From: a virus
Lineage: Duplodnaviria > Caudoviricetes
Strand: one strand, 5' to 3'
Length of the DNA: 26,319 bases
Virus record (IMG/VR): IMGVR_UViG_3300011402_000062
Span: 1-26,319 of that record
Below are positions 181 to 26,318 of the stretch, piece by piece (within the stretch, counting starts at the first letter, position 1; every line of letters begins with the position of its first letter). The notes below the pieces were generated by a model. It saw only the letters and a program-made list of their open reading frames with translations, made no database searches and was not told the DNA's origin. The position numbers and the translations under genes are program-made.

Positions 181-465
181 ATGATAAAGAAAGGCGCGTT
201 CGTTGAATTCACTGATTTGTGGTATCAAAGTTATCCTCCTGCTAACACGGCCGTAATCAAATACGGCATTTGCATGGAAGATACCGAACGTGAACTTAAT
301 CGGCCCGTGAAAGTAATGCGTGGAGATAAGAGTATTGAATATGCTCATTTCATTCACGCTCATTCATGGGCAGGATGGTGTCCGCCAGAACTAGAAAAAC
401 TCTACGAAGAAGAATTCGCAGAGAATGACTACGATGATTGTGAAGAGTATCCCTCTTCATTCTAG
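181..465 (+). CDS. Hypothetical early phage protein with acidic C-terminus
   Basis: 94-aa ORF with a strong AAGGAG RBS. Confidence 0.8.
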   Translation: MIKKGAFVEFTDLWYQSYPPANTAVIKYGICMEDTERELNRPVKVMRGDKSIEYAHFIHAHSWAGWCPPELEKLYEEEFAENDYDDCEEYPSSF

Positions 466-496
466 TTAGTTAGTTTCTAAAGAAAGGAGGTTTAGA

Positions 497-1081
497 ATGG
501 TTAAGAAGCGAGTCGCTAAGATATTCAAGCTGAAAGATGAGTATGGATACATTAGTCCGTATCAACTCGAAAAGAGAGCCAAGTCTAAACTTCCTACCTT
601 TAGATTCAGGAATCGATTGCATGAATTGAGAGCAATCGAAGGAGTGTATGAGAATACACGATATCCTGATTACCCAATTCATATTTCGTGTCGCTATAAC
701 GATATTCTTCGTGCTAGTGACACTCATCATTTCTATTCATGCTTTCACGCTGATAGAAGTGAGAATATCCAGCCCTTTCTACGGTGTGTTCATCCGGATT
801 GGGCTGTAATCTTTGTTACCGACAAGTCTGGTAAATTCATGGGTAGAACTTGGTTAAGGTTCAATCGAAGAAGTCACGTTGATTGGACTAGTAAGACTGA
901 GGAAGCCTTTGAAATCTTCAAGATGTATGGTAACAAATTGGAGGAACGTGATGTTAAGACTCTACTTGAGTATTTAATTAAGTCACGCCTCAACGCAAAC
1001 ATAGTTGAGGATAAAGAATCCGGCCGTCAAATTCGGATAAAAGGAGGATTATCCGACGACTACTTATCATTCCTTGACTGA
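497..1081 (+). CDS. Hypothetical early phage protein
   Basis: 194-aa ORF with AAGGAGG RBS. Contains conserved-looking YSCF and MGRTWL segments, but no family could be assigned. Confidence 0.8.
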   Translation: MVKKRVAKIFKLKDEYGYISPYQLEKRAKSKLPTFRFRNRLHELRAIEGVYENTRYPDYPIHISCRYNDILRASDTHHFYSCFHADRSENIQPFLRCVHPDWAVIFVTDKSGKFMGRTWLRFNRRSHVDWTSKTEEAFEIFKMYGNKLEERDVKTLLEYLIKSRLNANIVEDKESGRQIRIKGGLSDDYLSFLD

Positions 1082-1409
1082 AGTTATGTGTCATGTTTAG
1101 AGCGATTGCTCTAATGAATAACTGAGGAACGAGGAAGAAATAAGTAAACCAAGTACTTCTAACACCCTTTAGTGTAGTAGGGGTTCATAAGGAGTCGAGG
1201 CCAAATTATTAATATTATTATAAAAAACTACACAGTTTGTATCGCAATCCTAGAGACCGATACAGACCATCTAATCTACGGGTTTTAAGAAAGGCCTGAG
1301 AATCTTTCTTACTATCTTTAGATTAGAGTAATGTTGAAGTAACGGGTGAAAATACCCAATCTACCTTCAACATCCACATTCTTATTAGTAAGCAAGAAGG
1401 GAGGATTAC

Positions 1410-1574: not shown

Positions 1575-1590
1575 ACTACGGTAGGTTTCT

Positions 1591-1648: not shown

Positions 1649-1660
1649 ATAGGAGAGAAC

Positions 1661-2152: not shown

Positions 2153-2257
2153 ATGCTTGGAAAGATAGTTAAGAGTCTTGCTTCGATACGGCCGCCGAAA
2201 GGCGCGGTTATTGTAGTAATCAATAAGCAAGGCACTCACGTAACCAAAGTGAAATGA
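2153..2257 (+). CDS. Small basic hypothetical protein (34 aa)
   Basis: MLGKIVKSLASIRPPKGAVIVVINKQGTHVTKVK. ATGA overlap with the next gene. Confidence 0.55.
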   Translation: MLGKIVKSLASIRPPKGAVIVVINKQGTHVTKVK

Positions 2258-2460: not shown

Positions 2461-2762
2461 CCTTAGAAGAATTCCTCTCTCATTTAGAAAAAACACCAAG
2501 AGATTGGTGTTATTCTAATATCATTGGAAGTGATACACTTCGTCGTTATCCTGAGCCAGATAGGTCTTGCTGTCCAATTACAGCAGTAGCAGAAATGCTA
2601 TCAGGAAAAGAATACAACGTAAGTGACTTTCCTCAAGCTGCTAAGTATCTTGGACTTCACAAAATCTATATTGAGGATATACTCGCCGCGGCCGATTTAG
2701 AAACTAAACAATCATCAACAATGAGAATCCTTCTCATTAGAGCCTGTGGACTTTCATTATGA
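2457..2762 (+). CDS. Hypothetical phage protein
   Basis: 101 aa, GAGG RBS, ATGA coupling. Confidence 0.8.
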   Translation: MTLEEFLSHLEKTPRDWCYSNIIGSDTLRRYPEPDRSCCPITAVAEMLSGKEYNVSDFPQAAKYLGLHKIYIEDILAAADLETKQSSTMRILLIRACGLSL

Positions 2763-3917: not shown

Positions 3918-5663
3918 ATGATTTGTCCGAAGTGTAATCAAGAAGTAACAATCAAGAGTCAGGTATTGAGTATTGTAACTCTTAGTTGCAATCACTCAGT
4001 TCCCAAGAGTAAACTTCCTGTAGATAGACAGGAGTATCTTGATGAAGTTGACAATCTAGTAGAAGTAATTGAGAGGAATAGAGGACTAGAGATAGTTGAT
4101 TTCGCTCCTGAGATTCCTAAAGTAGTGATTCCTGAAGTAGTAGAGGAAAAACTAGGAGCGGGAGAAGTATCTCAAATTGAATTCAAGTCTATGGACGGCC
4201 GCGTTCCATACGAATTTCAGAGAGATGGAATTAAGTTCATTCGTGATTCAGGATTTAGATGCCTGATTGCTGATGAAATGGGACTTGGAAAGACTATTCA
4301 AGCTCTCGGTTCATTGAAATACAATAGAGAAGAAACTCTACCAGCGTTGCTAGTAGTTAAGTCTTCTCTAAAGCTCCAGTGGTTTAGTGAAGCAGTAAGA
4401 TGGTTGGGAGTTAAAGGGTTTCTCTGTCAAGTTATTACTGATGGCAAGACAGAACCAGTTCCCGGTATCTTTCAACTATACATCGTGTCCTACGATGTAT
4501 TGAGACGGTTTACTAAGAAGAGTAAGGTAAAGACTACAACTAAGTATGGAATGGAGAAGGAAGAAGATAAGTTCGAGAATCCTTTCTATACTTTCCCGTT
4601 CAAGACTATTATTCTTGACGAAGCTCAGTCGATTAAGAACATCAAATCTACTAGAACAGGTGAGATTTTCAGGATTTGCGAGACTGTTCCTAACATTATC
4701 GCACTCTCTGGAACTCCTTTCAAGAATAACATCTTGGAATACTATCCAATCCTCCATCTACTCAGACCAGATATCTTCTACTCAGAAGAGTCATTTGAGA
4801 AGCAGCATGTTAAGTATGGTTGGATTGGTTCCTCTTATAAACCAGTTGGATTAAGAGACCCTAAGTATTTCAAAGAACTTACTGAGTCTTTCATCATCAG
4901 AAGGGAAAGGAAAGAAGTTCTTCCTCAACTTCCTGAGATTAATCGAGTGTTTCATCATGTAGACTTCGAGACTGAGAAGATGAAACGCGATTACTACTCA
5001 GCAGAAGATGAATTGATTAGGAAGTATGAGGAGAATGCAAAATCTAAATCTCCTCAAGAAATCCTTGGAATCATGGCAGTCTGTAGACATATCGTTGGAC
5101 TAACAAAGGTTAAGCCAACGGTAGAGAAGATTACAGAATTTCTATTAGAGACAGATAGAAAACTAGTAGTCTTTGCTCATCATCAAGATGTAATGGAACT
5201 AATACATCTTCTGACTACAAACTGGTGTTTGGATGGCGGTCTAGAACTACCGCTGAAGTTTCACAGCGGACTAGGAGCTGAAGAAAGAAACGACATGATT
5301 ACGAAGTTTCGAGAAGGTAATTCTCGAATCATGATTGCTTCTACTCTAGCCGCCGGCGAGGGACTTAATCTACAGTTCTGTAGTGACTGTATCATTGTTG
5401 AGAGACAATGGAATCCAGCTAATGAAGAACAGGCAGAAGGAAGATTCATTAGAATAGGTCAGGAACGCAATCAGGTAAACGCTATTTACATGATTGTTTC
5501 AGGGACTATCGATGAGTGGTTCACTGAGATTGTAGAAGAAAAACGAAGAGCTTTCAAATCTACAATGCTAGGCAAGGAAGTTACTGAAACAGGAAGTCTC
5601 TTGCAGGAACTGATGAATGTTCTACTTAGCAAGGGCCGAAACAGAACGATTCGAGGATTCTAA
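3918..5663 (+). CDS. SNF2-family (HARP/SMARCAL1-like) helicase/ATPase
   Basis: Motifs LIADEMGLGKT (Walker A), ILDEAQ (Walker B), LSGTP, GEGLNL and QAEGRFIRIGQ (motif VI). AAGGAGG RBS. Confidence 0.93.
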   Translation: MICPKCNQEVTIKSQVLSIVTLSCNHSVPKSKLPVDRQEYLDEVDNLVEVIERNRGLEIVDFAPEIPKVVIPEVVEEKLGAGEVSQIEFKSMDGRVPYEFQRDGIKFIRDSGFRCLIADEMGLGKTIQALGSLKYNREETLPALLVVKSSLKLQWFSEAVRWLGVKGFLCQVITDGKTEPVPGIFQLYIVSYDVLRRFTKKSKVKTTTKYGMEKEEDKFENPFYTFPFKTIILDEAQSIKNIKSTRTGEIFRICETVPNIIALSGTPFKNNILEYYPILHLLRPDIFYSEESFEKQHVKYGWIGSSYKPVGLRDPKYFKELTESFIIRRERKEVLPQLPEINRVFHHVDFETEKMKRDYYSAEDELIRKYEENAKSKSPQEILGIMAVCRHIVGLTKVKPTVEKITEFLLETDRKLVVFAHHQDVMELIHLLTTNWCLDGGLELPLKFHSGLGAEERNDMITKFREGNSRIMIASTLAAGEGLNLQFCSDCIIVERQWNPANEEQAEGRFIRIGQERNQVNAIYMIVSGTIDEWFTEIVEEKRRAFKSTMLGKEVTETGSLLQELMNVLLSKGRNRTIRGF

Positions 5664-5892: not shown

Positions 5893-6082
5893 GTGGAAAG
5901 GGGAGGATTTCCTCCTCGTTTCTCTTAGTAAGAATACTCTAGAAGGTGCTATCACTACTAGAGAATTATATAACAATTTCGATGAGAGTATTGCTCATCT
6001 TTATGAGGATGGAGAGATTTGTCAGCACGGCCGCGTCATAGGCAACATTAAAGAAATAGAGTTCCTAGGAGAAGAAGAATGA
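5876..6082 (+). CDS. Hypothetical protein
   Basis: 68 aa, GAGG RBS. Confidence 0.75.
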   Translation: MVRKIKWKGEDFLLVSLSKNTLEGAITTRELYNNFDESIAHLYEDGEICQHGRVIGNIKEIEFLGEEE

Positions 6083-8367: not shown

Positions 8368-8553
8368 GTGAGAATCCAAAAGCCAGTTCGTGGCGGCCGG
8401 AAAAGAGTCTCTGCTGGAGTTGTTAAGCAAATAGAACAACGAGTAGAGCGGGATGCTATCAGATATAACTGTAGCAAATCCTTTGTTGTCAACACTATCC
8501 TAGCACGTTTCTATCATGTAGTTATAGAGGAGCATTACGATGAAAATAAGTAA
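8368..8553 (+). CDS. Ribbon-helix-helix DNA-binding protein
   Basis: RKRVSAGV (beta strand), helix, then YNCSKSFVVNTIL (second helix). AAGGAG RBS. Confidence 0.7.
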   Translation: MRIQKPVRGGRKRVSAGVVKQIEQRVERDAIRYNCSKSFVVNTILARFYHVVIEEHYDENK

Positions 8554-10079: not shown

Positions 10080-10943
10080 ATGCCAACCGAAAAACGAGTC
10101 TTAGTAATAGACTCAACTATCCTCAATGCCCTACAGAAATGTCCTTACTATACATTTCTTTCGTTCCATAAGAATCTTCGTACCCAAATCATCGCGGAGC
10201 CTCTAGAAAGAGGTGATTTAACTCACCATATTCTAGAACACTACTATCGTTCCATTAAGGATGGTGCGAAAGTAAATGATGCGCGAGACTTTGCGGCTGA
10301 TAAAGGAAGAATCAAATATCCCACTCTTCATATGGAAGTGGCAGCTTGTGAATGGATTATCCAGTCATTCTTTCTCTACGTAGAGCGTTGGAGACAGGAT
10401 GGAATGAAAGTGCTTGAAGTCGAAAAGCCTTTCATGATGAAAGTCTATGAAGATTCAGAGCTAATCGTTTACTACGCTGGTAAGATTGATTTAGTGTGCG
10501 AATTGCCTATTATCGGCCGCACAGCAATGGACCATAAATCAAGAACAAGAAAGAACGACGAAACAGAACTTAACAACCAGTTCATTGGTTACGCTATCAA
10601 TACAGACTCGAACGTAATCTACGTTAATGAATTCGGTTTGCAAACGTCTAAATCTCCAGAAGAAAAGTTTCGTCGGATGCCTCTCTCTTATACTGACGGA
10701 ATGAAAGCTCATTGGATGAATAACATCCTGAGATATTGGATTCGTCAGTTAGACTATCATCTTCAAGAGAATGTTTGGCCCGAAGTCTGGAATCCGTGGC
10801 ACTGTAAGAATTGTGTATTTGCTCCTGTTTGTAAGAGTTCTACAGAAGAAGAACGTGAACGTAAATTAAGAATGAACTATATAATCGGTGAACCGTGGGA
10901 CGTTAGCGGTGCCTTAGAAGGTGAAACGAATGGTGAAAATTAA
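10080..10943 (+). CDS. PD-(D/E)XK exonuclease, Cas4/RecB/AddB-like
   Basis: N-terminal CP, GxxxH, EVE, GKIDLV, DHKS, Q..GY and C-terminal CxxC.F...C (four-Cys Fe-S staple). Confidence 0.88.
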   Translation: MPTEKRVLVIDSTILNALQKCPYYTFLSFHKNLRTQIIAEPLERGDLTHHILEHYYRSIKDGAKVNDARDFAADKGRIKYPTLHMEVAACEWIIQSFFLYVERWRQDGMKVLEVEKPFMMKVYEDSELIVYYAGKIDLVCELPIIGRTAMDHKSRTRKNDETELNNQFIGYAINTDSNVIYVNEFGLQTSKSPEEKFRRMPLSYTDGMKAHWMNNILRYWIRQLDYHLQENVWPEVWNPWHCKNCVFAPVCKSSTEEERERKLRMNYIIGEPWDVSGALEGETNGEN

Positions 10944-11235
10944 GGAGAAAACATGTCCTCCTCATAAATACAGAAGGAGGAATCTTAGTAAGGATAAAGA
11001 GAATCCATATCTAGTATTTAAGTGCATGGATTGTCCGCATTACATTAAGACGGAAATGGCAGTAGGATTAGAAGCTCGATGTTTCAAGTGTAATGGTAAG
11101 TTCTTTATAACTGCGAAGCAAGCGAGTGTAATAGCTAAACCGACTTGTCCAAACTGTGTAAGTAAGAGTGATAAAGGTAAGGCTCTTGAGGAGCAGGTAG
11201 ATAACATTCTAGATACAATCTTGAAAGGTATCTAA
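10921..11235 (+). CDS. Multi-Cys zinc-finger protein (start possibly 10930)
   Basis: CPPH, CMDC, CFKC and CPNC motifs. Confidence 0.75.
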   Translation: MKRMVKIKEKTCPPHKYRRRNLSKDKENPYLVFKCMDCPHYIKTEMAVGLEARCFKCNGKFFITAKQASVIAKPTCPNCVSKSDKGKALEEQVDNILDTILKGI

Positions 11236-11429
11236 TGCTTGAGTTTCGCAAAGAGAAGAATGGGGTTTATACTATTCACGATGGAAGTATGTATATTGGA
11301 GCTATTTCTAGGAACGGCCGCCAGTATACGTTCTTAGCAGTTCCATTCTTTCCGTTTGATAAAGACAAGTTAGAACAAGTCCTAAATAGGATAAAGGAAT
11401 TAGAATACGATGCCCATAACCTTGGATAA
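11235..11429 (+). CDS. Small beta-rich hypothetical protein (paralog family member 3)
   Basis: TAATG coupling. Pattern similar to the 9014 and 9202 ORFs. Confidence 0.75.
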   Translation: MLEFRKEKNGVYTIHDGSMYIGAISRNGRQYTFLAVPFFPFDKDKLEQVLNRIKELEYDAHNLG

Positions 11430-12165
11430 AGTGCCGATTGATAAGAACTTTCGCGCACTACTAATCGGCCCGACTGGTAGAGGAAAGACTATTGCCGCTG
11501 CTAGTTGGCCGGGAAAAACTCTTGTCATTGACTTCGACCATAGACATAAGCCAATTATTGATTGGTTTCCTGATAGACTCGGAGAGATTTCAGTAGAGGT
11601 TATCTACCCAAGTAATTATTGGGATGTATTCAAATCTCTCGTAGATAGTCTCGAATCAGGTAAGTTGAAGTTCGATAACGTAGTAGTCGATGGAATTACT
11701 ACACTCTCTAACACAACCGTAGTCATGCAAATGATTGCGAAAGGTCAAGGACCAGAAAAGGGAAAGATTACTAAAGGTGGAGTAGCAGTTCCGTCTTGGG
11801 ACGAATTCAATGGAGAGGCTATGTTAATCACACAGCTTCTTGAAACATTGAAGTCCATTAGATGTAACTTGTTCGTTACAGCTCACCCAGTCTCTAAAAC
11901 TCGAATCGAAGGTACTAAATCAATCAAAGAAACCTCAATCATTTCATTCGGGACAAAACTCGGCCCGATGATTCCGGCTTACTTTGACGAAGTTTATGCC
12001 TTCGATTACGAGTTCGATATCAACGCTGGTAAACCAGTCAAGAGATTAGTCTTTACTTCACCCACTTCAGACTATCCTGATGTAAAGACTGCGTTAAAGG
12101 GACTTCCTCCAAAGCTGGACATTACCGGAAAGAATCTTTACGACGTAATGAAGGAGTATTTGTGA
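11410..12165 (+). CDS. AAA_24 / Sak4-like P-loop ATPase (single-strand annealing recombinase-like)
   Basis: GPTGRGKT (Walker A), VIDFD, VVVDGIT (Walker B), TAH and YFDEV. Located near the exonuclease and SSB genes. Confidence 0.85.
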   Translation: MPITLDKVPIDKNFRALLIGPTGRGKTIAAASWPGKTLVIDFDHRHKPIIDWFPDRLGEISVEVIYPSNYWDVFKSLVDSLESGKLKFDNVVVDGITTLSNTTVVMQMIAKGQGPEKGKITKGGVAVPSWDEFNGEAMLITQLLETLKSIRCNLFVTAHPVSKTRIEGTKSIKETSIISFGTKLGPMIPAYFDEVYAFDYEFDINAGKPVKRLVFTSPTSDYPDVKTALKGLPPKLDITGKNLYDVMKEYL

Positions 12166-13443: not shown

Positions 13444-13444
13444 G

Positions 13445-13819: not shown

Positions 13820-13859
13820 TAACCGTAGGAAAAGAAAAAGAAAAGAAAAGAGACAAAAG

Positions 13860-14240
13860 ATGAAGTGGAATGTTTCTCCGTCCGATGTGTCGCGTGGCAA
13901 GCTAATCCAGAAACCGGGTTGGTATACTCTGGAGATTGCTGCCTACAACGAAGAGCAGGCCAAGAAGGGTGACTCTACAAATGCTGTGTTTGATTTCCGG
14001 GTAATTAGTGACGAACCGGGAGCCAACGGCATTGAAATCCGGGTGTGGTTCAACGAAAAAGCTCCCGGTGTTGCAGTTCCTTTTATGGTTGCTCTCGGTG
14101 CTGAGGAAAGAGAAGATGGTTCTCTCTCAGTTGAATTCGGGAAGCATCTTGTAGGCAAGCGTGTTCAGGGCTTTATCAAGCGTGGCGAATGGGATGGAAA
14201 GCCCAAGAACGAAATCGCTGAATACGCTCCTCTGAGTTAG
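13860..14240 (+). CDS. DUF669-like single-stranded DNA-binding protein
   Basis: PGWY.LEI...E..KKGDS and LVGKRV...IK..EWDGKPKNEI..Y. Start moved to 13860, after a purine-rich leader. Confidence 0.75.
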   Translation: MKWNVSPSDVSRGKLIQKPGWYTLEIAAYNEEQAKKGDSTNAVFDFRVISDEPGANGIEIRVWFNEKAPGVAVPFMVALGAEEREDGSLSVEFGKHLVGKRVQGFIKRGEWDGKPKNEIAEYAPLS

Positions 14241-14994: not shown

Positions 14995-15419
14995 ACATAT
15001 CAGTTCTTACTAATCCACGAGGCGCTAATTATCGCCAGCTGAACTCGTTGAAAAAGCTCATTTCTGAACTAAAGGATGGAGAAGTTGAGATTGGAACATT
15101 CGCGCATACGGGAGACAAACAGAACCAGTCGATACACTCTGTTGGAAAGGCGGCCGGGTTTAGTATCGTTATTCATCCTACTAAGTCTCCTGATATTTCT
15201 GATGGCCGCGTTCTACCTTCTGTTTCAAATACTGAAAGGAATCGCGCTCTCGTAGACAACGCGGAAGTAGTAATTGCAATTCCAATGGTAGTCTTTGAGT
15301 ATGAGGATAGCCCTCTATTCAAGACGGTGAATTACGCTATCTCTAGAGCTAAAGAAGTATACCTTCTCTCTCCGAGAGGGAATGTATATCAGGTCTGGTC
15401 TACTAAAGATTCTATCTAA
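14991..15419 (+). CDS. Diverged SLOG-superfamily (DprA/YspA-like) protein
   Basis: HTGD, IVIHP, RNRALVDNAEVVIAIP and TVNYA resemble the SLOG pattern. The Gly-rich motifs are degenerate. Confidence 0.6.
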   Translation: MNISVLTNPRGANYRQLNSLKKLISELKDGEVEIGTFAHTGDKQNQSIHSVGKAAGFSIVIHPTKSPDISDGRVLPSVSNTERNRALVDNAEVVIAIPMVVFEYEDSPLFKTVNYAISRAKEVYLLSPRGNVYQVWSTKDSI

Positions 15420-15433: not shown

Positions 15434-17923
15434 GTGGATTACTGCCCCGGAACAGGGAATCTCCGTTCAAAAATCATGTTGATTGGCGATTGGGCCGGTC
15501 AATCTGAGATTAATCAAAAAGAATCTCTAGTAGGTGCTACTGGAGAGATTCTAGATAGAGTTTTCTCTGAAATAGGACAACCAGATTATCGTACTGAATT
15601 CTATTTCAGTAATGTCTACAAATATCATCCCGGTAATATCTACGGAGCATTAGATAAGAATGTATTAGCAGACTCTACCCGTAAGCTCTGGGCAGAGATA
15701 CAAGAGGTAAATCCAAATGTAATAGTTACGTTAGGAGAACTTCCCCTAAACGTAGTATGCGGTGTAAAAAAGGTAATGACCTATCGTGGTACGGTATTAC
15801 CTAACGATAAATTTGGCTATCTTCCTAAAGTAATTCCTACCATACATCCTTTGCATCTGGCAATGCCTACTAAGGCAAGCGGAGATTACTTCGAGACAAA
15901 GAAGCTATACAATGGAATATGGAGAACTATCCTTCAATTAGATTTAGCTAAAGCACTAGAAGAAGCCAAGACTAGAGAGTTCCATCCACCTGACAGATTA
16001 CTAAGAGTTGCAACTAGTTCGTTAGATGTAATTAGGTTCTTTAGAGAAAACAAAGGAAGGACACCGTATGCTGACGTGGAAACTTATAGGAGTACTCTTT
16101 GTAGCTGTCTTGGCATTAGTTTTGATAAATACGAAGGACTCTCAATCCCCCTCTTCCAAAAAGTAGGAGATATAAAGCTATGCGGAATACCACACTCAGA
16201 CCTCGCAAGAATATGGCAAGAAATACAAGAGCTATTCAATCGAGTAAAGATAGCCGGCCAAAACCTGAAGTTCGACCAAGCAAAATTGGAACTATTAGGT
16301 TTCCGAATGGCAGTACTTTCAGATGTTATGTTGAAGGCACACACAGTCAATTCAGAGCTGCCTGCCTTCAGTCTAAGTTTTTTGTCATCCATCTGGACAA
16401 AGGAACCATACTACAAAGACGAGGGAAAGGAATTCAATCCAGCGAAACACGACATACGGCGATTATTTTTATATAACGCTAAAGACTGCGTTGTAACTGC
16501 CGAGATTGACGAAGCTCTTGAGCTTGAATTGAGGGAGCTTAGTGATGAATACCATACTGATTTAGTAGGGTTCTATTACAACTATGTAGTTCCTCAGCAT
16601 CAGTTCTATTTTGACCTTGAAAAGGTCGGATTCAATATAGATGATGGAATGAGGAATTATCTAGTTATGAAGTATGAGACTTGGAGAGATATTCTTCAAG
16701 TAAAGTTAGACACGGCCGCCCAGCGCAATATAAACATTAATTCTCCTAAGCAAGTAAACGAGTTTCTCTACGGAACCCTTAGATTACCTCCTTCTTACAA
16801 TAAAAAGGGAAAGCTAAAGGGTGATGAGGATGCTATTGCCCAATTACTAAAGAATCGAGTCAAGAATGAGTCAAAAAGAGAAATCCTCAACTCTATCCTC
16901 GAATTTAGAAGAGTTAGTAAAACCCTTTCTACCTACTTGCTTTGTAAAAGAGATTACGACGGAAGGATACGTAGTCAATATCGAATTATTGGTACGGAGA
17001 CAGGACGTTCCAGCACTTCTATCCTTAGTGAACCAGTCAGGCCAGAAGACATTGGTCTTGCGTTTCAAACAATTACAAAACACGGAGACATTGGAAATGA
17101 CGTCCGCTCTTATCTTGTCCCCAGACCCGGATACGATTTAGTTAACGTAGATTTAGGTCAAGCAGAAGCGAGGGTAGTCTGTGTCCTCTGTAAAGATTGG
17201 GTCTTATTGGACGCTTTTGATTCGATTGACATTCATCGCAGGACTGCTTGGCTTGCTTTGGTATCTGGCATTCTTGACTTAAGTAAGGGAAAGCATGAAT
17301 CTGATGCTTTAGGTAAGGATTCAGCAGAGCGATTTATAGGTAAAAAGACTCGTCACGCTGGAAACTATAACATGAAATGGCGAGAGTTTATGTCTAACGT
17401 CATTTCTGATTGTAGAAGGTTCGGAATAGATTTCACAATATCAAGGTTCCTAGCTGAAAAGATATTAGAGCGATTCCATGCAGCTTCACCTAAGATTAGG
17501 GAAGTATTCCATGCTGAAATTAAGGACGCTATTGATACGAGTCGCGCTCTGGTTACTCCGTATGGCCGTCTCAGGAGATTTTACGATAGGGCTTCAGATA
17601 GATTGTATGGAGAAGCATTTGCTGACATACCGCAAGATACTGTTAAGCAAAGACTTACTAGAGCTGGATTTAAGATTAAGCAAGAGGCGCCCTCCGTATT
17701 ATTCTGTGGGGAAGCTCATGATTCTCTTACGATGCAAATACCGCGTGGAGAAGTAGTTGGGATTTGTAGGGAAGTAATAAGGCCCGCTCTAATGGAGCCT
17801 ATTGACTTCAATAACTGCACGTTGAAACGGGACTTCAAGTTAGTTATTCCATGTGATTTTGAGCATGGAGATAACTATAAAGATTTGGTCAAATTGGATG
17901 TCATGGATAAATCTGCTGCATGA
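15434..17923 (+). CDS. polA: Family A DNA polymerase with N-terminal UDG-like domain and 3'-5' exonuclease
   Basis: UDG-like LIGDWAG..E, NVYKYHP and TIHP. Exonuclease DVET, NLKFD and YNAKD. Polymerase TETGR, motif A DLGQAEAR, motif B RFIGKKTRHAGNY, motif C AHDSL. Confidence 0.93.
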   Translation: MDYCPGTGNLRSKIMLIGDWAGQSEINQKESLVGATGEILDRVFSEIGQPDYRTEFYFSNVYKYHPGNIYGALDKNVLADSTRKLWAEIQEVNPNVIVTLGELPLNVVCGVKKVMTYRGTVLPNDKFGYLPKVIPTIHPLHLAMPTKASGDYFETKKLYNGIWRTILQLDLAKALEEAKTREFHPPDRLLRVATSSLDVIRFFRENKGRTPYADVETYRSTLCSCLGISFDKYEGLSIPLFQKVGDIKLCGIPHSDLARIWQEIQELFNRVKIAGQNLKFDQAKLELLGFRMAVLSDVMLKAHTVNSELPAFSLSFLSSIWTKEPYYKDEGKEFNPAKHDIRRLFLYNAKDCVVTAEIDEALELELRELSDEYHTDLVGFYYNYVVPQHQFYFDLEKVGFNIDDGMRNYLVMKYETWRDILQVKLDTAAQRNININSPKQVNEFLYGTLRLPPSYNKKGKLKGDEDAIAQLLKNRVKNESKREILNSILEFRRVSKTLSTYLLCKRDYDGRIRSQYRIIGTETGRSSTSILSEPVRPEDIGLAFQTITKHGDIGNDVRSYLVPRPGYDLVNVDLGQAEARVVCVLCKDWVLLDAFDSIDIHRRTAWLALVSGILDLSKGKHESDALGKDSAERFIGKKTRHAGNYNMKWREFMSNVISDCRRFGIDFTISRFLAEKILERFHAASPKIREVFHAEIKDAIDTSRALVTPYGRLRRFYDRASDRLYGEAFADIPQDTVKQRLTRAGFKIKQEAPSVLFCGEAHDSLTMQIPRGEVVGICREVIRPALMEPIDFNNCTLKRDFKLVIPCDFEHGDNYKDLVKLDVMDKSAA

Positions 17924-19088
17924 AGCAACCTTGGATGCAGAAACACCAAGGTCATTTATTCTATGGAGTGGTATATGTTCAATTTCCGCGGTAGTTAGCC
18001 CAAACGTCTGGTTAAATAAGGCCGGAAAGTATCATTTATCTCCTAATATCTACTGCTTACTAGTAGCTAAAAGTGGATTAGGCAAGAGTTTGCCTATTTC
18101 TATGGCTAAGAAACTAGTAACAATGGTAGGTAATACTCGCGTAATCTCTGGAAGAAGCACTATTCAGAAGATTATCATGGACTTGAGTAAGAGTGAAACC
18201 GATGAAAAAACAGGAATTGCCAGATTCAAAGATGCTAGAGGGTTTATTGTCTCGGGTGAGTTTTCTGTATCAATGCAATCCGACACCGATTTATTCACAA
18301 TCCTCACAGATATTTATGATACTCACGCAAACGCTGACGGTTGGGTTAATTCTACTAAAGCAGGAGGAGCAGAGTACCTCAAAGCCCCTTGCGTCACTTT
18401 ATTTTCAGGAAGTAGTCCCGAACACTTTGAGGAGTTTGTTCCAAAAGTCAATATTGCTGGAGGATTTATCGGACGAACTCTTCTTATATATGAAGAAAAA
18501 CGATGGAGATTGAATCCTCTTGTAGATGAGGATATGGCCGATATTGACTTTGTTAAATTATCTTGTCATCTTAAAAAATTAAAGGATTTATCAGGTGGAT
18601 TTAAGTGGACTCCTACAGCAAAGAAGGTTTATATAGATTGGTATGAAGATTTTAGACCTCGTGACCATGATGATAAAACAGGAACAGCAGAGAGATTTCC
18701 TGACCATATCTTAAAAGTAGCTATGTGCCTGAGTTTAAGTAAGGGAGTAGAGCTAATCTTACGAGAAGAGGACATTTCTGAGGCACTTAAATTATGCATG
18801 AAATTAAGGCACTCTGTTAAGGTATTAACTTCGAGTTCTGGTAAGTCTAATACGGCCGCCCAGACTCGCGCTGCATTAGAATTAATCTTAAAGTCACCTG
18901 AAGGGAAGATTTCTAGGGAATATCTACTACAGAGAGGATTTGGAGACTTCAATTCTACTGAATTAGACCAGATTGTAGAGACTCTAATTCAGTCAGGCTT
19001 TATACAACAGACCGGAACTAAAGTAATTGTCTATGCTATTAGCGAACGTGGTAAACAAATCTGGCAAGAAGCTAAGGAGAAGTCATGA
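17898..19088 (+). CDS. DUF3987-like P-loop helicase with C-terminal winged helix
   Basis: PNIY.LLVAKSGLGKS (Walker A), LTDIYD, GGFIGR and H.LKVAM. Lies directly after polA. Start moved from 17853 to MSWINLL. Confidence 0.75.
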   Translation: MSWINLLHEATLDAETPRSFILWSGICSISAVVSPNVWLNKAGKYHLSPNIYCLLVAKSGLGKSLPISMAKKLVTMVGNTRVISGRSTIQKIIMDLSKSETDEKTGIARFKDARGFIVSGEFSVSMQSDTDLFTILTDIYDTHANADGWVNSTKAGGAEYLKAPCVTLFSGSSPEHFEEFVPKVNIAGGFIGRTLLIYEEKRWRLNPLVDEDMADIDFVKLSCHLKKLKDLSGGFKWTPTAKKVYIDWYEDFRPRDHDDKTGTAERFPDHILKVAMCLSLSKGVELILREEDISEALKLCMKLRHSVKVLTSSSGKSNTAAQTRAALELILKSPEGKISREYLLQRGFGDFNSTELDQIVETLIQSGFIQQTGTKVIVYAISERGKQIWQEAKEKS

Positions 19089-22300: not shown

Positions 22301-25300
22301 CTGCCTCTACTTTACCTTCTTTAGCAAGTTGAATTGCCTTTCTAAAATTGCTAAGAGCACCTTCAACAATTCCTATATTTTCTGCTCGATATTTTGGGTC
22401 ACGACCTTGCTTAAATTCACCTTCTCTTACATGATGCTCTGAGTATGTCTTTGCATCATAATCATGCTCAATTTGCTCTCGTTCATTAGTTATTTTACGA
22501 GAGGCACGTTCCTGAGCGGCCGCCTTAGCAGCATCTTCTCTTTCCTTGAAGTAATCGGCAGGAGTTTTTTCTCTTGTAGCTCCCCATTCTCGACCTAATT
22601 TACCTGTATAGCCAAATCTTTTACCGATATCAGGAATAGAGAGAACGCTCTTAAGATGACGTAATTGCCTTGTTAGATAAATAGCATTTTCATAACTTGC
22701 TTCATACTTAGCTATATCTGCTGCATTTCCTCTATGTCTAGCATCTTTTAAGAGATTATCAAGTTTACTTTCAGCTGCTCCTGCTGCATTGAGTTCAGCA
22801 TCTAATTGAGAGTAATCATAATCTTCAAGAGGTGTTCCTATTCCACTATCCTTCTTATACGCCTCTGTAAAGGTAGGCTTATCAGAAGTAGATTTAAATT
22901 CAACAGGCTTCTCAACAGAAATCTGAGATTCTCGTCCAGATACCTTAGATTCTCTTTCATCAATAGCAGCTAAGAATCTACCCTTCCAAGTCTCTCCTGC
23001 TTTTAATGGGTCATTTCTGAGAATAGGAGGCATAGCTGCTCTAAATTCAGAGTCAGCAGCGCCTTCTAAATCATCTACTATTTCAGCCCATCTTCTAGCA
23101 GTTGCATCCTTTAATTGTGGACCATACTTCTCATAGAGGTCTTGAAGTCCCCCAAGGCCACTACCTAAAGTGGTTCCTCTGCTCTGTTTATGGGCATTTT
23201 CTTGATTTTCAATAAGACGCACAACCCGGCCGCGCCAAGTCTCTCCCGGCTTTAATCCTTCCTTCTTTGCAAAGGAAATAATCCTTCGATAAGCTTCATC
23301 AGGAGAGCCTAATTTATCATGCTTAGCTACCTGTTCAGCTAATGTTCTAGCTGTTGGGTCTTGGAAACTATCAGGAGAAGGAATATGTCCCCTACCCTTA
23401 GGTGGAGGAACATTGGCTTTTCTAGCAACAGTAGGAGGAGCAGGAACAGATGGTCTATCAACCATGCTCCTAGGCTCTACTGGATATTCCTCTGCTAAAG
23501 CAGCCTTCTTCTCATCAGACCTTACTTTCCTATCAGCTAATCTTTCCTTATATCGAGCAGCCCTTTGTTCAGGAGTTAAAAATGGCTCAAGTTGAGGAGC
23601 TACATGAGAAGTGCCTGTCTCATTATCCATTACTTGATAACGAGCAGCTCCAGCACCTAGATTCTCATTGATTCCTCTTGCATATATACGTGCTTCTGCA
23701 AGAGAAGGTCGGCCTGCTATCGGGCGGCCGGTTTCAACGTCGATAATATGGAATCGAGCTTTACTTAACTTATCAGCTAGTTTCTTTCCATATTCAGTCT
23801 CACGAAGCTTCTCATAGAAATCTTGGAGATTGAACATTCCTACATTAGTGCCCTTCTTATTAGCTTCTTCAGCGGCTAATGCAGCGTCAATTCTACCTTG
23901 AGCAGTAGTGGTACTAGCTCTTTCCTTCTTTTTAGCTTCTGCTGCTGCTTTTCTTTCTTCTCTTAATGCAGCGGCTTGAGCGTCTCTCTTTGCCTTATCA
24001 AGAATCCTAACCCTTTCAAGGTCTTTAAGTCCTCGTAATACTCCCTCGTCACCTTCAATATGAGGATATCTTGCAGCAGCTTTGGCTCTATCTACTGCTG
24101 AGATATTCTGAAGAATTGTCTCATTTTCAGCAGCTTCCTTAATGGCTCTTTCAGACCTAGAAACCTCTTCTTCTAGAATCTGCTTATCTAGTCTTTCAAG
24201 AATAGCAGTTCTAGCAGGAGAATCAGGTTGAGCTGCAATCTTATCTCTTAATGCAGCAGCTTCAACTGCGGTTCTTTGTCTTGGTGCTCTTTCTGGAGTT
24301 ACTTCTGGAACACTACCTTCCGGATATCTAACCGGAGTAGGAGCTGCTTCTGGTCTTTCTATAAGTCCTTCTGGTAACGGCCAATTATCACCAACAACAG
24401 TTTTACCAGCTCTCTGACCAGATGCTCTACGGAATACAGGTCTTCCTTCTTTATCAAGAACTGGTCTTGGTGGAACAGTATGTGGAGTTGCAGGTGTAGG
24501 AGTTGGAGGCGCACCTCTATCTGGAGGTAATATTCCTCCGGGTGTTGCCTCAAATACTCCGGGCCTTCTTCCTCTTGGAGTAGAATCAAACGGAGTAGGT
24601 CTCATTTCTCCAGATAAGAAATCTCCGGGACCAAAAGGTAACTCTGGTTGAATTCCGGGTAATTCAGAGAAATTGATAGTCTGAGGAGGCTGCCAATTAC
24701 GCTTTCTAACAGATGCCTCCATCTTGGTATTAAGAATTTCAGCATCAAGACTAGCAACTTTATCCCACTGTCCAGCTCTTGCAGCTTCTGACTTCTGCAT
24801 CTCAAATTCGTGAATTCTAGCTTGAGATTCAGCATCAATTCCTGCGTGTGCCCTAGCCTTCTGTTCTGGAATAGTTCCAGCATCTAGTGGAGTTCCAGTT
24901 CTTGGCTGTGACCAAGGATGTTCTTGGAAAGTTCTTGGAAGTGGAGAAGCTACTTCATCAAAAGGTAGAGGAACATCTGTAGGAGTTCTCGGACCTTCTG
25001 GAAGCATACGAGAAGGATTAGTTTCTACGGCGGCCGGGTCAATTCCCCGAACTCCACGAATTACAGGAGGCGGTTCTGCAAATGGTAATGGAGCTGGTCT
25101 AATTGGGCGTGCTCCAGCTTTACCAATTGCTCCTGCTGTTCTAATAGCTTTAGGAGCCAAAGCCATAGCAGTTGGAACAGTTAAATCTCCAGCTATAGCT
25201 CTAGCTCCACGCCAACTTGGGTCTTTTTGGAATCCCTTAACGTCGTAATCTAATGTATCGTAATCTCCACCCATGAATCCAGTAGCGAATCTACCGACAT

Positions 25301-25889
25301 TCTCTGCTAACCCACTGCTAAACTTAGCAAATTCAGGAATTAATGGTGTCCCTTCTGGAGACATCATTCTATCTGTACGAGCAAGTTCCTTAAATGGCTC
25401 TATTGCTCCTTGACCTATTTCTTGACGAGCTTTTATAATCTCAGGAGTATTACCCTGTGGAAATGCACCAGCAATAAAAATATTCTTAGCAAAATGTCCT
25501 AATCCCTCTAATCCGGGCTGAAGCCTAGAAAAGTATCCAGCATTAGGGTCTTCAACTTTAGGTTCCTCAGGTGGAGGAGCCGGCATTCTAGTTCTTTCTG
25601 ATTTAGGAATATCACTATAGTAAGTTTTTTCCATTTCTGGACCAAAAGTACCATAGCGAGTGCCTTCAGAACGTCTACCTTCTAAAGCTGCAACAGGCCC
25701 ACCAGCCTTAAAAGGCTCTCCTTTTTGAATATCAGAGGGGGTCTCTTTAGTATCTAATGTAGACAGATGAGAGATAATCTTCCTAAAATCCTCATCTGTA
25801 GGTTCAGCTTCATCATTAGTCCAGTCAACCTTGTATTCCTTACCAGTCTTAGGACTCTTGAGCGTATAAGTTCTTTTCTGTGGAGGCAT
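19299..25889 (-). CDS. Giant probable internal virion / DNA-ejection protein (2196 aa) with internal repeats
   Basis: Uninterrupted ORF on the opposite (late) strand. Pro-rich N-terminal part, charged helical middle, and a C-terminal region like phage large ejection proteins. No catalytic motif was recognised. Confidence 0.75.
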   Translation of the reverse strand: MPPQKRTYTLKSPKTGKEYKVDWTNDEAEPTDEDFRKIISHLSTLDTKETPSDIQKGEPFKAGGPVAALEGRRSEGTRYGTFGPEMEKTYYSDIPKSERTRMPAPPPEEPKVEDPNAGYFSRLQPGLEGLGHFAKNIFIAGAFPQGNTPEIIKARQEIGQGAIEPFKELARTDRMMSPEGTPLIPEFAKFSSGLAENVGRFATGFMGGDYDTLDYDVKGFQKDPSWRGARAIAGDLTVPTAMALAPKAIRTAGAIGKAGARPIRPAPLPFAEPPPVIRGVRGIDPAAVETNPSRMLPEGPRTPTDVPLPFDEVASPLPRTFQEHPWSQPRTGTPLDAGTIPEQKARAHAGIDAESQARIHEFEMQKSEAARAGQWDKVASLDAEILNTKMEASVRKRNWQPPQTINFSELPGIQPELPFGPGDFLSGEMRPTPFDSTPRGRRPGVFEATPGGILPPDRGAPPTPTPATPHTVPPRPVLDKEGRPVFRRASGQRAGKTVVGDNWPLPEGLIERPEAAPTPVRYPEGSVPEVTPERAPRQRTAVEAAALRDKIAAQPDSPARTAILERLDKQILEEEVSRSERAIKEAAENETILQNISAVDRAKAAARYPHIEGDEGVLRGLKDLERVRILDKAKRDAQAAALREERKAAAEAKKKERASTTTAQGRIDAALAAEEANKKGTNVGMFNLQDFYEKLRETEYGKKLADKLSKARFHIIDVETGRPIAGRPSLAEARIYARGINENLGAGAARYQVMDNETGTSHVAPQLEPFLTPEQRAARYKERLADRKVRSDEKKAALAEEYPVEPRSMVDRPSVPAPPTVARKANVPPPKGRGHIPSPDSFQDPTARTLAEQVAKHDKLGSPDEAYRRIISFAKKEGLKPGETWRGRVVRLIENQENAHKQSRGTTLGSGLGGLQDLYEKYGPQLKDATARRWAEIVDDLEGAADSEFRAAMPPILRNDPLKAGETWKGRFLAAIDERESKVSGRESQISVEKPVEFKSTSDKPTFTEAYKKDSGIGTPLEDYDYSQLDAELNAAGAAESKLDNLLKDARHRGNAADIAKYEASYENAIYLTRQLRHLKSVLSIPDIGKRFGYTGKLGREWGATREKTPADYFKEREDAAKAAAQERASRKITNEREQIEHDYDAKTYSEHHVREGEFKQGRDPKYRAENIGIVEGALSNFRKAIQLAKEGKVEAAWDTWNKANDAQGDLRNIVGSKSKIQDIFMELRKEAWDAAQKAEGRGTTIGGAFGSIQPFYEKIADKVSGSRVGKKVGEKTLEAIKKAARSGKALREEKRISKIPEENRGISYNVVDKRWNNRVTRQFDDKAAAQEHVDRLNKKWEDDMYDIKESVVDKTLPSGIGYADPENTVHFKKTQHHEVPDTMHEPTFGYEVHARGAAHFRMERGELTWGDFPTVEQFFKVGDEFPNAKQLYYGEELIVQKGKHGPEVIRKKDGYKGPQKKGTTIGSGFGGLQDFYEKLAKSEKGRKLLDELKKAAYHVIDDDGVPISGKNTLEEAEAKAAAYTKLRGGDAQFTVVPNVETAERVAPTRAPEVPVAEQFDLKPLEPILNRLGSKGKEIFNDLSKRFSAEKEAGKVVGEREVISKVPISEEYKKQPLGQFMQRLRDNMSAEALREIRIREWRADKLAEMHNVEATGEAGLLAKLNIMKGAAEAPPTFKPLKMSQTLIDQLIDLADKHYNTGPGRDENKAIRAGIAIRDLNAGKYIAPEPRNLLSNLFPEQYRKEIMNMYSGIPWEHIQQYGAELAPPIKGFVNKTLAQLTKWTWRSMDIAKATGDMSFAFNQGRGSMGHASFYKSRLKTLKAMFDQAEFDRQQKARYDSPWWSIITEDMGVHIGDLELLGLDQFRPGRRRKNNKVYGNPTLEKSPLVLPFHRGALALLNDIKFRNAEILAKAAIKRGDNLADPKVAKSIGAIVNEMAGHGSLTEGLVKAEETIRLGVWSPRLTAQKFNYGKLFMPSEWAKEKRFAQKQRARSLATWMVSSVALMEGLRQLGGKPTYDLAASNFGKVEFEDQIIDTTSGMGSAITLAYRLATGRVVDTKGKTHHLYSSEFGQSATELIGSFFENKASPKAAFIAKLVRQENPYTGKPYNIPAEAINSMLPMFAENFIDAVKDLGSSDPDFKRLLFLLPSFTGLNVYNKDRKRSTFGEDVMGLTGYDKKRKQTFREDILDFVKPVFSR

Positions 25890-25895
25890 TTGAAC

Positions 25896-26318
25896 CTACC
25901 TAACAACCCAATTATCGATAGTTTTACCACCAGCAGCAGAAGGTTTATTACCTTCGTTTCCCATCCCACTCTTATACGTCTCTCCAAGTTTTGCTCTTAG
26001 TTCTTCTTTAGCTTTTCTTACAGCAGGACTGTCTCCTGAGCCAAAATACTTTCCCGGTTCTTTATTAGGTTGAACAATAATACGATTAGTATTCTCATCT
26101 ACATAATAAACCTTATCAGTATCGTTATCGTCAATATCGTTAAGAGTGAGAATGTCAGCTGCATCATTGTAAGCCTTTTGATTTACATCTCCGGGCTTTA
26201 GCTGTCTTGCTGCTGCTGCAAGTTTTCCAGCGGCCGTCTTAGCTCTAACATCAGCCCCATAATTCCTAGATTGGGCACCAATATTAGCAATATCCTTTCT
26301 ATTTGTTCTCTCAGCAGC
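25896..26318 (-). CDS. C-terminal part of a probable virion/ejection protein (runs off the window)
   Basis: Open frame ...AAERTNRKDIANIGAQSRNYGADVRAK...KTIDNWVVR*, with the stop 6 nt before the giant gene's ATG. Confidence 0.75.
   Translation of the reverse strand, partial: AAERTNRKDIANIGAQSRNYGADVRAKTAAGKLAAAARQLKPGDVNQKAYNDAADILTLNDIDDNDTDKVYYVDENTNRIIVQPNKEPGKYFGSGDSPAVRKAKEELRAKLGETYKSGMGNEGNKPSAAGGKTIDNWVVR

What the first reader, a model, noticed from the sequence alone, without database searches (positions are those of the whole stretch)
248..26236. Genome-wide planted GC motif CGGCCG(C)(S): 18 copies, one per ~1.5 kb, inside genes of an AT-rich phage
Seen: CGGCCG at 248, 1021, 2189, 2689, 4196, 6028, 8394, 10514, 11315, 13316, 15151, 16713, 18853, 22517, 23227, 23725, 25031 and 26231. 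Base composition (~40% GC) predicts only about 1-2. Sixteen of 18 extend to CGGCCGC and 14 to CGGCCGC[C/G] on one strand or the other. All lie in CDSs, in all three frames, and use otherwise disfavoured codons (ACG GCC GCC, GGC CGC, CGG CCG), so selection acts on DNA rather than protein. Gaps are 0.5-3.7 kb with no clustering. Phages normally lose palindromes, and this one has purged GATC and CCWGG, so gaining one is the opposite behaviour. Recalled knowledge: the Dnd phosphorothioation consensus reported for Streptomyces lividans is cGGCCgccg with a GGCC core. Inference: the phage may keep a minimum density of host modification sites (phosphorothioate or methyl) to be read as self. Alternatives are a Chi/HIP1-like host signal, or binding sites for the phage HTH protein at 14761.
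Basis: partly seen in the sequence, partly recalled or inferred. Interest (0 to 1): 0.85.

Follow-up and report, generated by a model that had tools for sequence, protein, structure and literature searches.

The report
Phage family's own Chi-like word dialects
An uncultured sediment phage carries the six-letter DNA word CGGCCG inside its genes about 20 times more often than chance, and related phages each keep their own GC-rich spelling; the words are likely stop-or-cut signals for the phage's own DNA-end-trimming enzyme, which would make them a virus-encoded counterpart of bacterial Chi recombination signals.

Summary
CGGCCG occurs 18 times against 0.8-0.9 expected, survives codon-preserving shuffles (17 vs 0.84), is evenly spaced in this species (P about 0.003) and is kept about 3 times better than the same rare codons elsewhere, while single sites turn over. 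The new point: it is one spelling of a family-wide habit. In 26 of 42 related phage records the top hexamer is a GC-rich word at p<1e-5 (CCGGCC, AGCCGC, CCGCCG, CGGCAC, ACCGCC, GCGCGC and others), on both strands, mostly around a GCCG core. No methyltransferase and no primase were found. Among ten core genes, the tree of the Cas4/AddB-type Fe-S nuclease (10080-10943) best groups the 11 CGCGC genomes, but a distance test does not single it out. Best guess (0.32): a phage-encoded Chi-like signal; a host reader (0.25) and priming sites (0.17) stay open. The host is unknown. This scan noted dispersed words in other phages before; I found no note on this family.

The parts
248..253 (.). CGGCCG site 1 (no C extension)
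   Evidence: in ORF 181-465, ACG GCC GTA; kept in G001
1021..1026 (.). CGGCCG site 2 (no C extension)
   Evidence: ORF 497-1081, TCC GGC CGT; lost in G001
2189..2195 (+). site 3, CGGCCGC; only site read as CGG CCG, in 34-aa ORF 2152-2257
   Evidence: kept in G001
2688..2694 (-). site 4, CGGCCGC on minus strand
4196..4202 (+). site 5, in SNF2 helicase gene
   Evidence: kept in G001, lost in G003
6028..6034 (+). site 6
8393..8399 (-). site 7; core kept in three relatives although flanks differ
10514..10520 (+). site 8, in the nuclease gene
11315..11321 (+). site 9
13315..13322 (.). site 10, GCGGCCGC, in Acb2/Tad1-family gene; absent from the G001 allele
15150..15156 (-). site 11; kept in G001 and G003
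16713..16719 (+). site 12, in DNA polymerase gene; kept in G001 and G004
18853..18859 (+). site 13, in DUF3987 helicase gene
22516..22523 (.). site 14, GCGGCCGC, in 2196-aa gene
23227..23233 (+). site 15, in 2196-aa gene
23724..23730 (-). site 16, in 2196-aa gene; kept in G001 inside an 87%-identical block
25030..25036 (-). site 17, in 2196-aa gene
26230..26236 (-). site 18; kept in G001 inside an 87%-identical block
10080..10943 (+). Cas4/AddB/AdnA-type PD-(D/E)XK nuclease with four invariant cysteines (predicted Fe-S cluster); leading candidate reader of the word
   Evidence: Pfam PDDEXK_1 E 1.3e-9; weak Cas4 hits; invariant C21, C242, C245, C251, D137, D151, K153 in 19 members; model pLDDT 90; Foldseek AdnAB 1.4e-8, Cas4-family ACE1 2e-6, AddB 1.5e-5; tree tests
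10921..11235 (+). Cys/His-rich small protein next to the nuclease, core gene in 17 of 28 records; function not identified
11410..12165 (+). Sak4-like annealing ATPase
   Evidence: Pfam AAA_24 E 2.4e-18; PHROG 124
13806..14240 (+). core gene in 16 of 28 records, taken as single-strand binding protein from position and recall; no family hit
3918..5663 (+). SNF2-family helicase
   Evidence: Pfam PF00176, PF00271
15434..17923 (+). family A DNA polymerase with N-terminal UDG-like domain
   Evidence: Pfam PF00476, PF03167, PF01612
17853..19088 (+). DUF3987 (SF6-type) helicase, 411 aa, no primase domain detected
   Evidence: PMC4889955 passages; median length 396 aa in 24 records

Best explanation
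CGGCCG is this lineage's spelling of a short GC-rich word that most phages of this family keep scattered through their genes on both strands, and it is likely read by the phage's own Cas4/AddB-type nuclease, which would stop or cut there and hand single-stranded ends to the Sak4 annealing protein to start recombination-driven copying. Shown: the excess, its independence of codon use, retention above control with turnover, lack of strand polarity, lineage-specific spellings, the nuclease fold, and the absence of a recognisable primase or methyltransferase. Inferred: that a phage protein reads the word, that it is this nuclease, and what it does there. The palindrome would be favoured because it offers the GCCG core on both strands; as the nuclease drifts in preference, the word would drift with it.
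For: Family-wide GC-rich words that follow phage clades: top hexamer has 5-6 G/C in 23 of 28 records, 17 of them at p<1e-5, and in 9 of 14 further records; GCCG is 1.15-fold or more in 24 of 42 records, and 11 of 31 tested use CGCGC instead. Graded, one-sided preference, not an all-or-none site: CGGCCG 47/7.7, CGGCCC 42/13.7, CGGCCA 47/25.1, CGGCCT 25/24.6 in G001-G004. Retention 96 of 215 vs 30.4 expected. Tree test on 18 genomes picked by capsid protein: the nuclease was the only one of 12 genes whose free tree already held the six CGCGC genomes together; Sak4, terminase, a tail gene, polymerase and portal rejected that clade (AU<0.05). With 27 genomes the nuclease tree held 10 of 11 and had the smallest likelihood cost (4.5; AU 0.36); helicase, tail gene, Sak4, terminase and polymerase rejected it. 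Fold matches AdnAB, Cas4-family and AddB nuclease domains. Density 1 per 1.86 kb in the complete relative G001 (26 in 48,372 bp) equals the Chi density of phages LLS and P1 (1 per 1.86 and 1.90 kb; PMC12315714 section 15). The phage has its own nuclease-annealase module, and lambdoid phages with such modules mostly lack host Chi (same paper, abstract).
Against: The link to the nuclease was spotted after looking at trees, not predicted. Distance tests do not single it out: partial r 0.30 tied with three other genes in 14 genomes and fell to 0.18 behind a tail gene (0.34), the terminase-adjacent gene (0.29), the helicase (0.24) and the scaffold gene (0.20) in 23 genomes. Four other genes did not reject the CGCGC clade. 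The 14 added genomes were found with nuclease patterns, and CGCGC genomes tend to be GC-richer, which can pull trees. G017, G019, G022, G023 and G025 show no clear word, four of them with the nuclease in the sequence held. Two cultured distant relatives show no GC word. In AddAB and RecBCD Chi is read by a helicase-like domain, not by the nuclease domain (recalled), and known Chi sites are polar (20 of 23 in LLS) while these words are not. No binding, cutting or fitness data exist.
Confidence: 0.32

Rival explanations
1. A conserved host protein reads the word: a Chi-like signal of the host's AddAB/AdnAB/RecBCD, a HIP1-like host palindrome, or the site of a core host methyltransferase. Spellings would follow host groups.
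For: Chi-rich phages exist at the same density. A tail gene gave the highest partial correlation with spelling (0.34), as expected if spelling tracks the host. A core host reader fits one word shared by phages that avoid different restriction sites. A weak hint points to Acidobacteriota hosts.
Against: No polarity by strand or genome end. The phage carries its own recombination module. The same tail gene rejects a CGCGC clade (AU 0.010 and 0.031). At least ten spellings among 42 records is fast drift for a core host protein. Host genomes could not be examined.
Confidence: 0.25
2. The words are priming sites: the 5'-to-3' DUF3987 helicase recruits a primase (host DnaG, or an activity hidden in a phage protein) that starts short G/C-rich primers at an S-C-G template trinucleotide on either strand.
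For: Nearly all spellings contain CCG or GCG on one strand with G/C on the 5' side; spacing of 1.5-2 kb suits lagging-strand fragments (recalled); DUF3987 helicases usually come with a primase (PMC4889955 passages) and one is a 5'-to-3' helicase (PMC11724360 passages); helicase partial r 0.24.
Against: No primase domain or gene was found among core genes. The helicase tree rejects the CGCGC clade (AU 0.008). Evenness per strand is weak.
Confidence: 0.17
3. One reading: the phage keeps preferred Dnd phosphorothioation sites so that a host DndFGH-type system reads it as self.
For: CGGCCG is the preferred S. lividans site (PMC6435447 passage); free flanks favour C at +1 (22 vs 7.5 of 36) and C at +2 (43 vs 19.1 of 119), like cGGCCgcc; PT density was proposed as a self mark, with spacings mostly 1.5-10 kb (PMC8053081 passages); CCGG is also a PT motif and CCCGG is enriched here (24 vs 8.0).
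Against: Only GGCC is required in wild-type S. lividans, and the base matching the phage's strongest flank (+1 C) had little effect even in the dndB mutant; no G preference at +3 (8 vs 7.4); GGCC is 1.1-fold in the window; most spellings are not among the PT motifs in the passages read; Dnd systems are patchy between strains (recalled), the word is clade-wide.
Confidence: 0.1
4. No function: a context-specific repair or polymerase bias (for example methyl-directed very-short-patch repair, or the UDG-like domain) creates and restores the word.
For: Such a ratchet was proposed for HIP1 (PMC5861425 passages); biased repair would also raise retention; even spacing is weak outside this species (pooled P 0.02-0.06).
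Against: Single-mismatch neighbours show no depleted T-for-C precursor (CGGTCG/CGACCG 2 vs 2.6); a bias does not give the even spacing seen here (P=0.003); no methyltransferase in the clade; the polymerase tree rejects the CGCGC clade.
Confidence: 0.08
5. Binding sites for a phage DNA-binding protein: the small protein at 14761 or the conserved helix-turn-helix-like protein encoded upstream of the large terminase.
For: The terminase-adjacent gene is core (23 of 28 records), does not reject the CGCGC clade and has partial r 0.29.
Against: Its putative recognition helix (read by eye) differs widely among CGCGC genomes and is missing in the alignment row of G049, which has one of the strongest words. 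The 14761 protein is in 9 of 28 records. No longer consensus or hairpin around the sites.
Confidence: 0.06

Closest known systems
Chi sites and Chi-rich phages LLS and P1 (PMC12315714; abstract and sections 9, 15 read)
   Same: Short word written into genes against codon preference, about 1 per 1.9 kb, sites come and go; linked here to a nuclease of the RecB/AddB/AdnA fold.
   Different: Chi is a polar non-palindromic octamer read by a host enzyme and is enriched in phages without a recombination module; this word is non-polar, palindromic in this lineage, changes spelling between phage clades and sits in phages that have their own module.
HIP1 and alternative HIPs of cyanobacteria (PMC5861425; passages read)
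   Same: GC-rich palindrome, 15-fold or more over-represented, in all reading frames, conserved beyond codon controls, variants in different lineages, function unproven.
   Different: HIP1 is a chromosome feature of 8 bp around a GATC methylation site; this is a 6-7 bp phage word in a genome that has purged GATC, and many sister spellings are not palindromes.
Dnd phosphorothioation site of Streptomyces lividans, cGGCCgccg (PMC1888814 abstract and passages; PMC6435447 passages)
   Same: Identical central hexamer and a C-rich right flank.
   Different: Dnd needs only GGCC; GGCC is not enriched here; no modification shown; sister spellings do not fit.
Cas4 / AddB / AdnA iron-sulfur nucleases (for the candidate reader)
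   Same: PD-(D/E)XK core, one N-terminal plus three C-terminal cysteines, structural matches at E 1e-8 to 1e-4 including Cas4 complexes titled as PAM-bound.
   Different: 10-16% identity; far below the NCBIfam Cas4 cut-off (19.7 vs 65 bits); stand-alone, in a phage recombination module, no CRISPR genes.
N4-like replisome (UDG-PolA plus DUF3987 helicase fused to an AEP primase; PMC10201439 and PMC4889955 passages)
   Same: UDG-fused family A polymerase next to a DUF3987 helicase.
   Different: The helicase here is about 400 aa with no primase domain detected.

Membership tests
Chi site | over-represented beyond codon use | tested here: met
Chi site | polar, oriented to strand or genome end | tested here: not met
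   palindromic core; CGGCCGC 10 plus / 8 minus in the window; no pattern along nine records
Chi site | changes the activity of a RecBCD/AddAB-type enzyme | not testable with these tools
   needs biochemistry
Chi-rich phage class (LLS, P1) | phage lacks its own recombination module | tested here: not met
   nuclease and Sak4 present
Dnd PT site (S. lividans type) | GGCC core is the required unit | tested here: not met
   GGCC 1.1-fold; AGGCCT 2/14.7, TGGCCA 3/20.6, GGGCCC 0/4.4 in G001-G004; requirement
Dnd PT site (S. lividans type) | flank gccg | tested here: inconclusive
   +1 C and +2 C enriched, +3 G not
Dnd PT site (S. lividans type) | sulfur in the backbone; host has dndABCDE-FGH | not testable with these tools
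   only assembled contigs available; host unknown
HIP1-like iterated palindrome | palindrome 15-fold or more over-represented in coding DNA | tested here: met
   17 vs 0.84; 12-fold under the stricter null
HIP1-like iterated palindrome | conserved beyond the same codons elsewhere | tested here: met
   96 of 215 vs 30.4 (pairs not independent)
HIP1-like iterated palindrome | cognate methyltransferase in the same genome | tested here: not met
   no methyltransferase family among 32 window ORFs and 46 ORFs of G001-G004; motif scan hit only G013, G020, G023, G025; host enzymes not examined
Primase recognition site | a primase is encoded | tested here: not met
   no primase domain in Pfam; PHROG label 'DNA primase' covers the DUF3987 helicase only; none among core clusters; a host primase is not excluded
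Primase recognition site | primers start at the word | not testable with these tools
   needs fragment mapping
Cas4/AddB-type Fe-S nuclease (gene 10080-10943) | PD-(D/E)XK fold with four conserved cysteines | tested here: met
CRISPR Cas4 proper | reaches family cut-off and lies with cas1 | tested here: not met
   19.7 vs 65 bits; no cas genes among scanned ORFs

The most novel reading that the evidence does not exclude
A large family of uncultured phages runs its own Chi system: a stand-alone Cas4/AddB-type nuclease reads a short GC word that the phage plants through its genome to set where DNA ends stop being trimmed and recombination-primed copying starts, replacing a primase; nuclease and word co-evolve, giving a natural series of at least ten matched enzyme-word dialects.
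Probability: 0.3. Interest if true: 0.88.

Novelty: new variant of a known kind. Interest (0 to 1): 0.68.

Why it matters
Phages normally lose short palindromes; this family gains GC words and changes their spelling from clade to clade. Whatever reads them, the series of spellings is a ready test set: each genome predicts the preference of its own reader. If it is a host protein, the words give Chi-like or modification motifs of uncultured sediment bacteria and a handle on host assignment.

Tried and rejected
Codon or amino-acid artefact: rejected. GAAC/GTTC (another PT motif) looked enriched in plain shuffles but is only 1.0-1.2-fold once the next base is fixed, in step with GTAC/GATC avoidance. 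Longer consensus or hairpin: none (76 sites, mean folding energy -4.2 vs -3.9 kcal/mol, P=0.30). Plain alignment-level retention at 74% identity was no higher than for other GC-rich hexamers (for example 1 of 9 and 3 of 18 against 0.11-0.20 background); the excess appears only where the amino acids are conserved. Strand-wise evenness: mostly not significant; the empirical rank for G008 rests on one control word. No cultured relative by capsid or nuclease; polymerase matches were 21-26% identical. Sequence searches of solved structures for the helicase, the 2196-aa protein and the nuclease profile gave nothing useful. Contigs of four runs showed no molecule ends and only one informative strain. 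The 34 loci were fetched but only two entered the retention test. PMC11611040 passages held no statement on sequence-dependent pausing of phage exonucleases. No complex prediction was run. Supplements of the papers were not read and may hold further PT motifs.


Full report
1. The observation. CGGCCG occurs at all 18 stated positions of the 26,319-bp window (40.5% GC). Order-1 and order-2 Markov models expect 0.78 and 0.91 and rank it first among all hexamers. Shuffling synonymous codons in 43 ORFs gives 0.84 on average and never more than 5 in 1000 runs, against 17 observed. A stricter shuffle that also fixes the next base gives 13 vs 1.1. 16 of 18 sites extend to CGGCCGC and 14 to CGGCCGC[C/G], 10 on the plus and 8 on the minus strand, two counted on both. 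Gaps run from 498 to 3664 bp; they are more even than random (CV 0.53, P=0.003; smallest gap P=0.0008), but the largest gap is not unusually small (P=0.15). GATC (1 vs 114-130) and CCWGG (0 vs 25-30) are purged as stated. Nine sites read xCG GCC Gxx, eight xxC GGC CGx, and one CGG CCG in a 34-aa ORF. There is no longer consensus and no hairpin.

2. What the window is. It is part of a phage genome: SNF2 helicase, PD-(D/E)XK nuclease, Sak4-like ATPase, Acb2/Tad1-family protein, UDG-fused family A polymerase, DUF3987 helicase, cold-shock protein and a 2196-aa protein on the other strand. All 24 listed runs that hold it are freshwater sediment (20), groundwater (3) or sediment (1) metagenomes. The capsid protein has no match among 50,697 cultured phage records but 534 matches among viral contigs. 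The host is unknown; a lipoprotein of a close relative resembles Acidobacteriota clusters, which is a lead only.

3. Close relatives. The complete records G001 (48,372 bp, 96% identical) and G003 (47,455 bp, about 75%) hold 26 and 14 sites; G002 holds 12 in 30 kb and G004 7 in 15.7 kb; a distant record holds none. Positions mostly differ between the 74-76% relatives, and plain retention is at background. Where the amino acids are conserved and four-fold sites differ by more than 35%, the word is kept in 96 of 215 comparisons against 30.4 expected from the same rare codons elsewhere; in near-identical pairs 76 of 80 against 70.2 (pairs are counted in both directions and are not independent). 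So sites are held, yet replaced over time. Even spacing is strong in G000 and G001 (P 0.002 and 0.0005 linear; 0.006 for G001 as a circle), not significant in G002-G004, and weak when 20 records are pooled (Stouffer P 0.017 against a uniform null, 0.059 against control words). No methyltransferase family was found in 32 window ORFs and 46 ORFs of G001-G004.

4. The family-wide pattern. In 28 records read whole or nearly whole, the most enriched hexamer under the strict shuffle has five or six G/C in 23, and reaches p<1e-5 in 17 of them; in 14 further records this holds for 9. The spellings differ by clade: CGGCCG(C) in G000-G004, GGCCGA in G006 (46/8.7), CCGGCC in G010 and G047, AGCCGG in G012 and G024, ACCGCC in G009 (58/14.4), CCGCGC in G008 (76/19.1), CCGGCGC in G040, CGGCACC in G044, CGGCGGC in G046 (52/4.3), AGCCG in G049 (166/56), AACGGCT in G052, CCCCGG in distant G005, and GCGCGC in 11 genomes. 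G017, G019, G022, G023, G025, G026 and G041 show no clear word. All words are split about evenly between sense and antisense strands and show no switch along the genome. Most contain GCCG, which is 1.15-fold or more in 24 of 42 records; the CGCGC genomes have GCCG near 1.0. CGGCCG is the spelling that shows GCCG on both strands. Preference is graded (CGGCCG 6-fold, CGGCCC 3-fold, CGGCCA 1.9-fold, CGGCCT 1-fold in G001-G004).

5. The phosphorothioate idea. The recalled consensus is in print: a preferred site within CGGCCG (PMC6435447, passage) and cGGCCgccg (PMC1888814, abstract and passages). Free flanking positions do favour C at +1 and +2, and PT density has been proposed as a self mark (PMC8053081, passages). 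Against it: in wild-type S. lividans only GGCC was required, and the base that matches the phage's strongest flank had little effect even in the dndB mutant; GGCC is 1.1-fold in the window and the other GGCC palindromes are avoided; the PT motifs named in the passages I read are GAAC/GTTC, GGCC, GATC, CCA, CAG, CCGG and GAGC/GCTC, which leaves most spellings unexplained; and G000/G001/G004 lack CCWGG while G002/G003 have 36 each, so their hosts differ in restriction systems while the word is shared. I give it 0.10.

6. Which protein reads the word? Core early genes are the SNF2 helicase, nuclease, a small Cys-rich protein, Sak4, a putative single-strand binding protein (label from position and recall), polymerase and helicase; no primase was recognised, although DUF3987 helicases usually come with one (PMC4889955, passages). 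On first trees the six CGCGC genomes formed a clade only in the nuclease tree. This was seen after the fact, so I tested it. With 18 genomes chosen by capsid gene, the nuclease was the only one of 12 genes whose free tree held that clade; five genes rejected it, and the terminase-adjacent gene nearly tied. With 27 genomes (four ambiguous ones, G009, G017, G023 and G041, left out by a stated rule) the nuclease tree held 10 of 11 and had the smallest cost; helicase, a tail gene, Sak4, terminase and polymerase rejected the clade; four genes did not (10 genes run). Distance tests are less kind: the nuclease led in sets found with nuclease patterns (partial r 0.2-0.3 in most, near zero in two), tied with three genes in the capsid-chosen set and came fifth in the largest set. 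Relatedness and GC content confound all these tests. The terminase-adjacent protein has a helix-turn-helix-like stretch by eye, but it varies widely among CGCGC genomes and is missing in the G049 row. The nuclease model (pLDDT 90) matches AdnAB, Cas4-family ACE1, AddB and RecE and keeps four invariant cysteines.

7. Mechanism. Most likely (0.32) the word is a Chi-like signal for the phage's own nuclease: it trims a DNA end, stops or cuts at the word from either direction, and leaves a single strand for Sak4, which would supply 3' ends to the polymerase in place of a primase. That Cas4 proteins read short words rests on recall and on structure titles; that AddAB and RecBCD read Chi with another domain is recalled and counts against. 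Rivals: a core host reader (0.25), priming sites (0.17), phosphorothioate self-marking (0.10), biased repair (0.08), a phage DNA-binding protein (0.06).

8. Comparison and novelty. It works like Chi or HIP1 in its statistics: density equals that of Chi in LLS and P1 (PMC12315714, section 15), and conservation beyond codon controls parallels HIP1 (PMC5861425, passages). It is not a member of either: it is non-polar, the phage has its own recombination module, and no cognate methyltransferase was found. Paper searches for CGGCCG with phage and over-representation, for palindromes in phage genomes with Chi and HIP1, for Cas4-like phage nucleases, for Sak4 modules and for lineage-specific phage motifs showed no report of this family or pattern in their listings; the library lacks most subscription papers. 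Earlier notes of this scan describe dispersed words in other phages and bacteria; none matched this polymerase or these words. Verdict: a real, selected, family-wide signal with dialects and an unproven reader; new variant of a known kind; interest 0.68.

Noticed in passing
window, 32 places (for example 8076, 13996, 14038, 17125, 19111, 24537, 24654): A second word, CCCGG/CCGGG, is enriched (24 vs 8.0 in coding DNA; 61 vs 26.6 in G001) but clumped rather than even; it is the main word of distant G005.
   Followed up: partly
window 13231-13819: Acb2/Tad1-family gene (Pfam E 7.5e-12) directly followed by a nucleoside deoxyribosyltransferase-like gene (E 6.3e-8); both are swapped for divergent alleles in G001. 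Likely counter-defence pair.
   Followed up: no
window 15434-17923: The polymerase reads R-F-I-G-K-K-T-R-H-A-G-N-Y at motif B, with His where family A enzymes usually have Phe, Tyr or Leu (numbering recalled); the UDG-like motif of this clade departs from the family consensus.
   Followed up: no
L170 (Desulfofustis phage LS06-2018-MD01), about ten places such as 248-263, 2250-2265, 15473-15488, 23059-23073, 29969-29984, 41280-41295: A dispersed inverted repeat built on TGTCCCA and TGGGACA arms, mostly at gene boundaries; looks like an operator or promoter family.
   Followed up: no
G046 (L296-L298) and G049 (L307-L309): The strongest dialects in the set: CGGCGGC 52 vs 4.3 and AGCCG 166 vs 56; best material for a biochemical test.
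   Followed up: partly
G011 L111:10890-14220 and matches in G013, G014, G020, G025, G026: A three-gene block among the tail genes, one with a CxxxCxxC pattern typical of radical SAM enzymes (read by eye).
   Followed up: no
G013 L116:14339-15688, G020 L136:7187-8482, G023 L146:4283-5509, G025 L148:2-907: ParB-like proteins with amino-methyltransferase-like motifs just upstream of the polymerase; these genomes have weak or no GC word.
   Followed up: no
G000-G004: Restriction-site avoidance differs within one clade: CCWGG absent in G000, G001, G004 but 36 in G002 and G003; CTCTTC and GAAGAC almost absent in G002-G004 but common in G000 and G001.
   Followed up: partly
window 14537-14710: 57-aa ORF that is largely a run of Asp/Glu, conserved in position in G001 and G004; possible DNA mimic.
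   Followed up: no
window 19299-25889: 2196-aa protein with no family or structure hit; mosaic against G001 (blocks of 87-99% identity with indels) and replaced by 1225- and 1707-aa forms in G002 and G003.
   Followed up: partly
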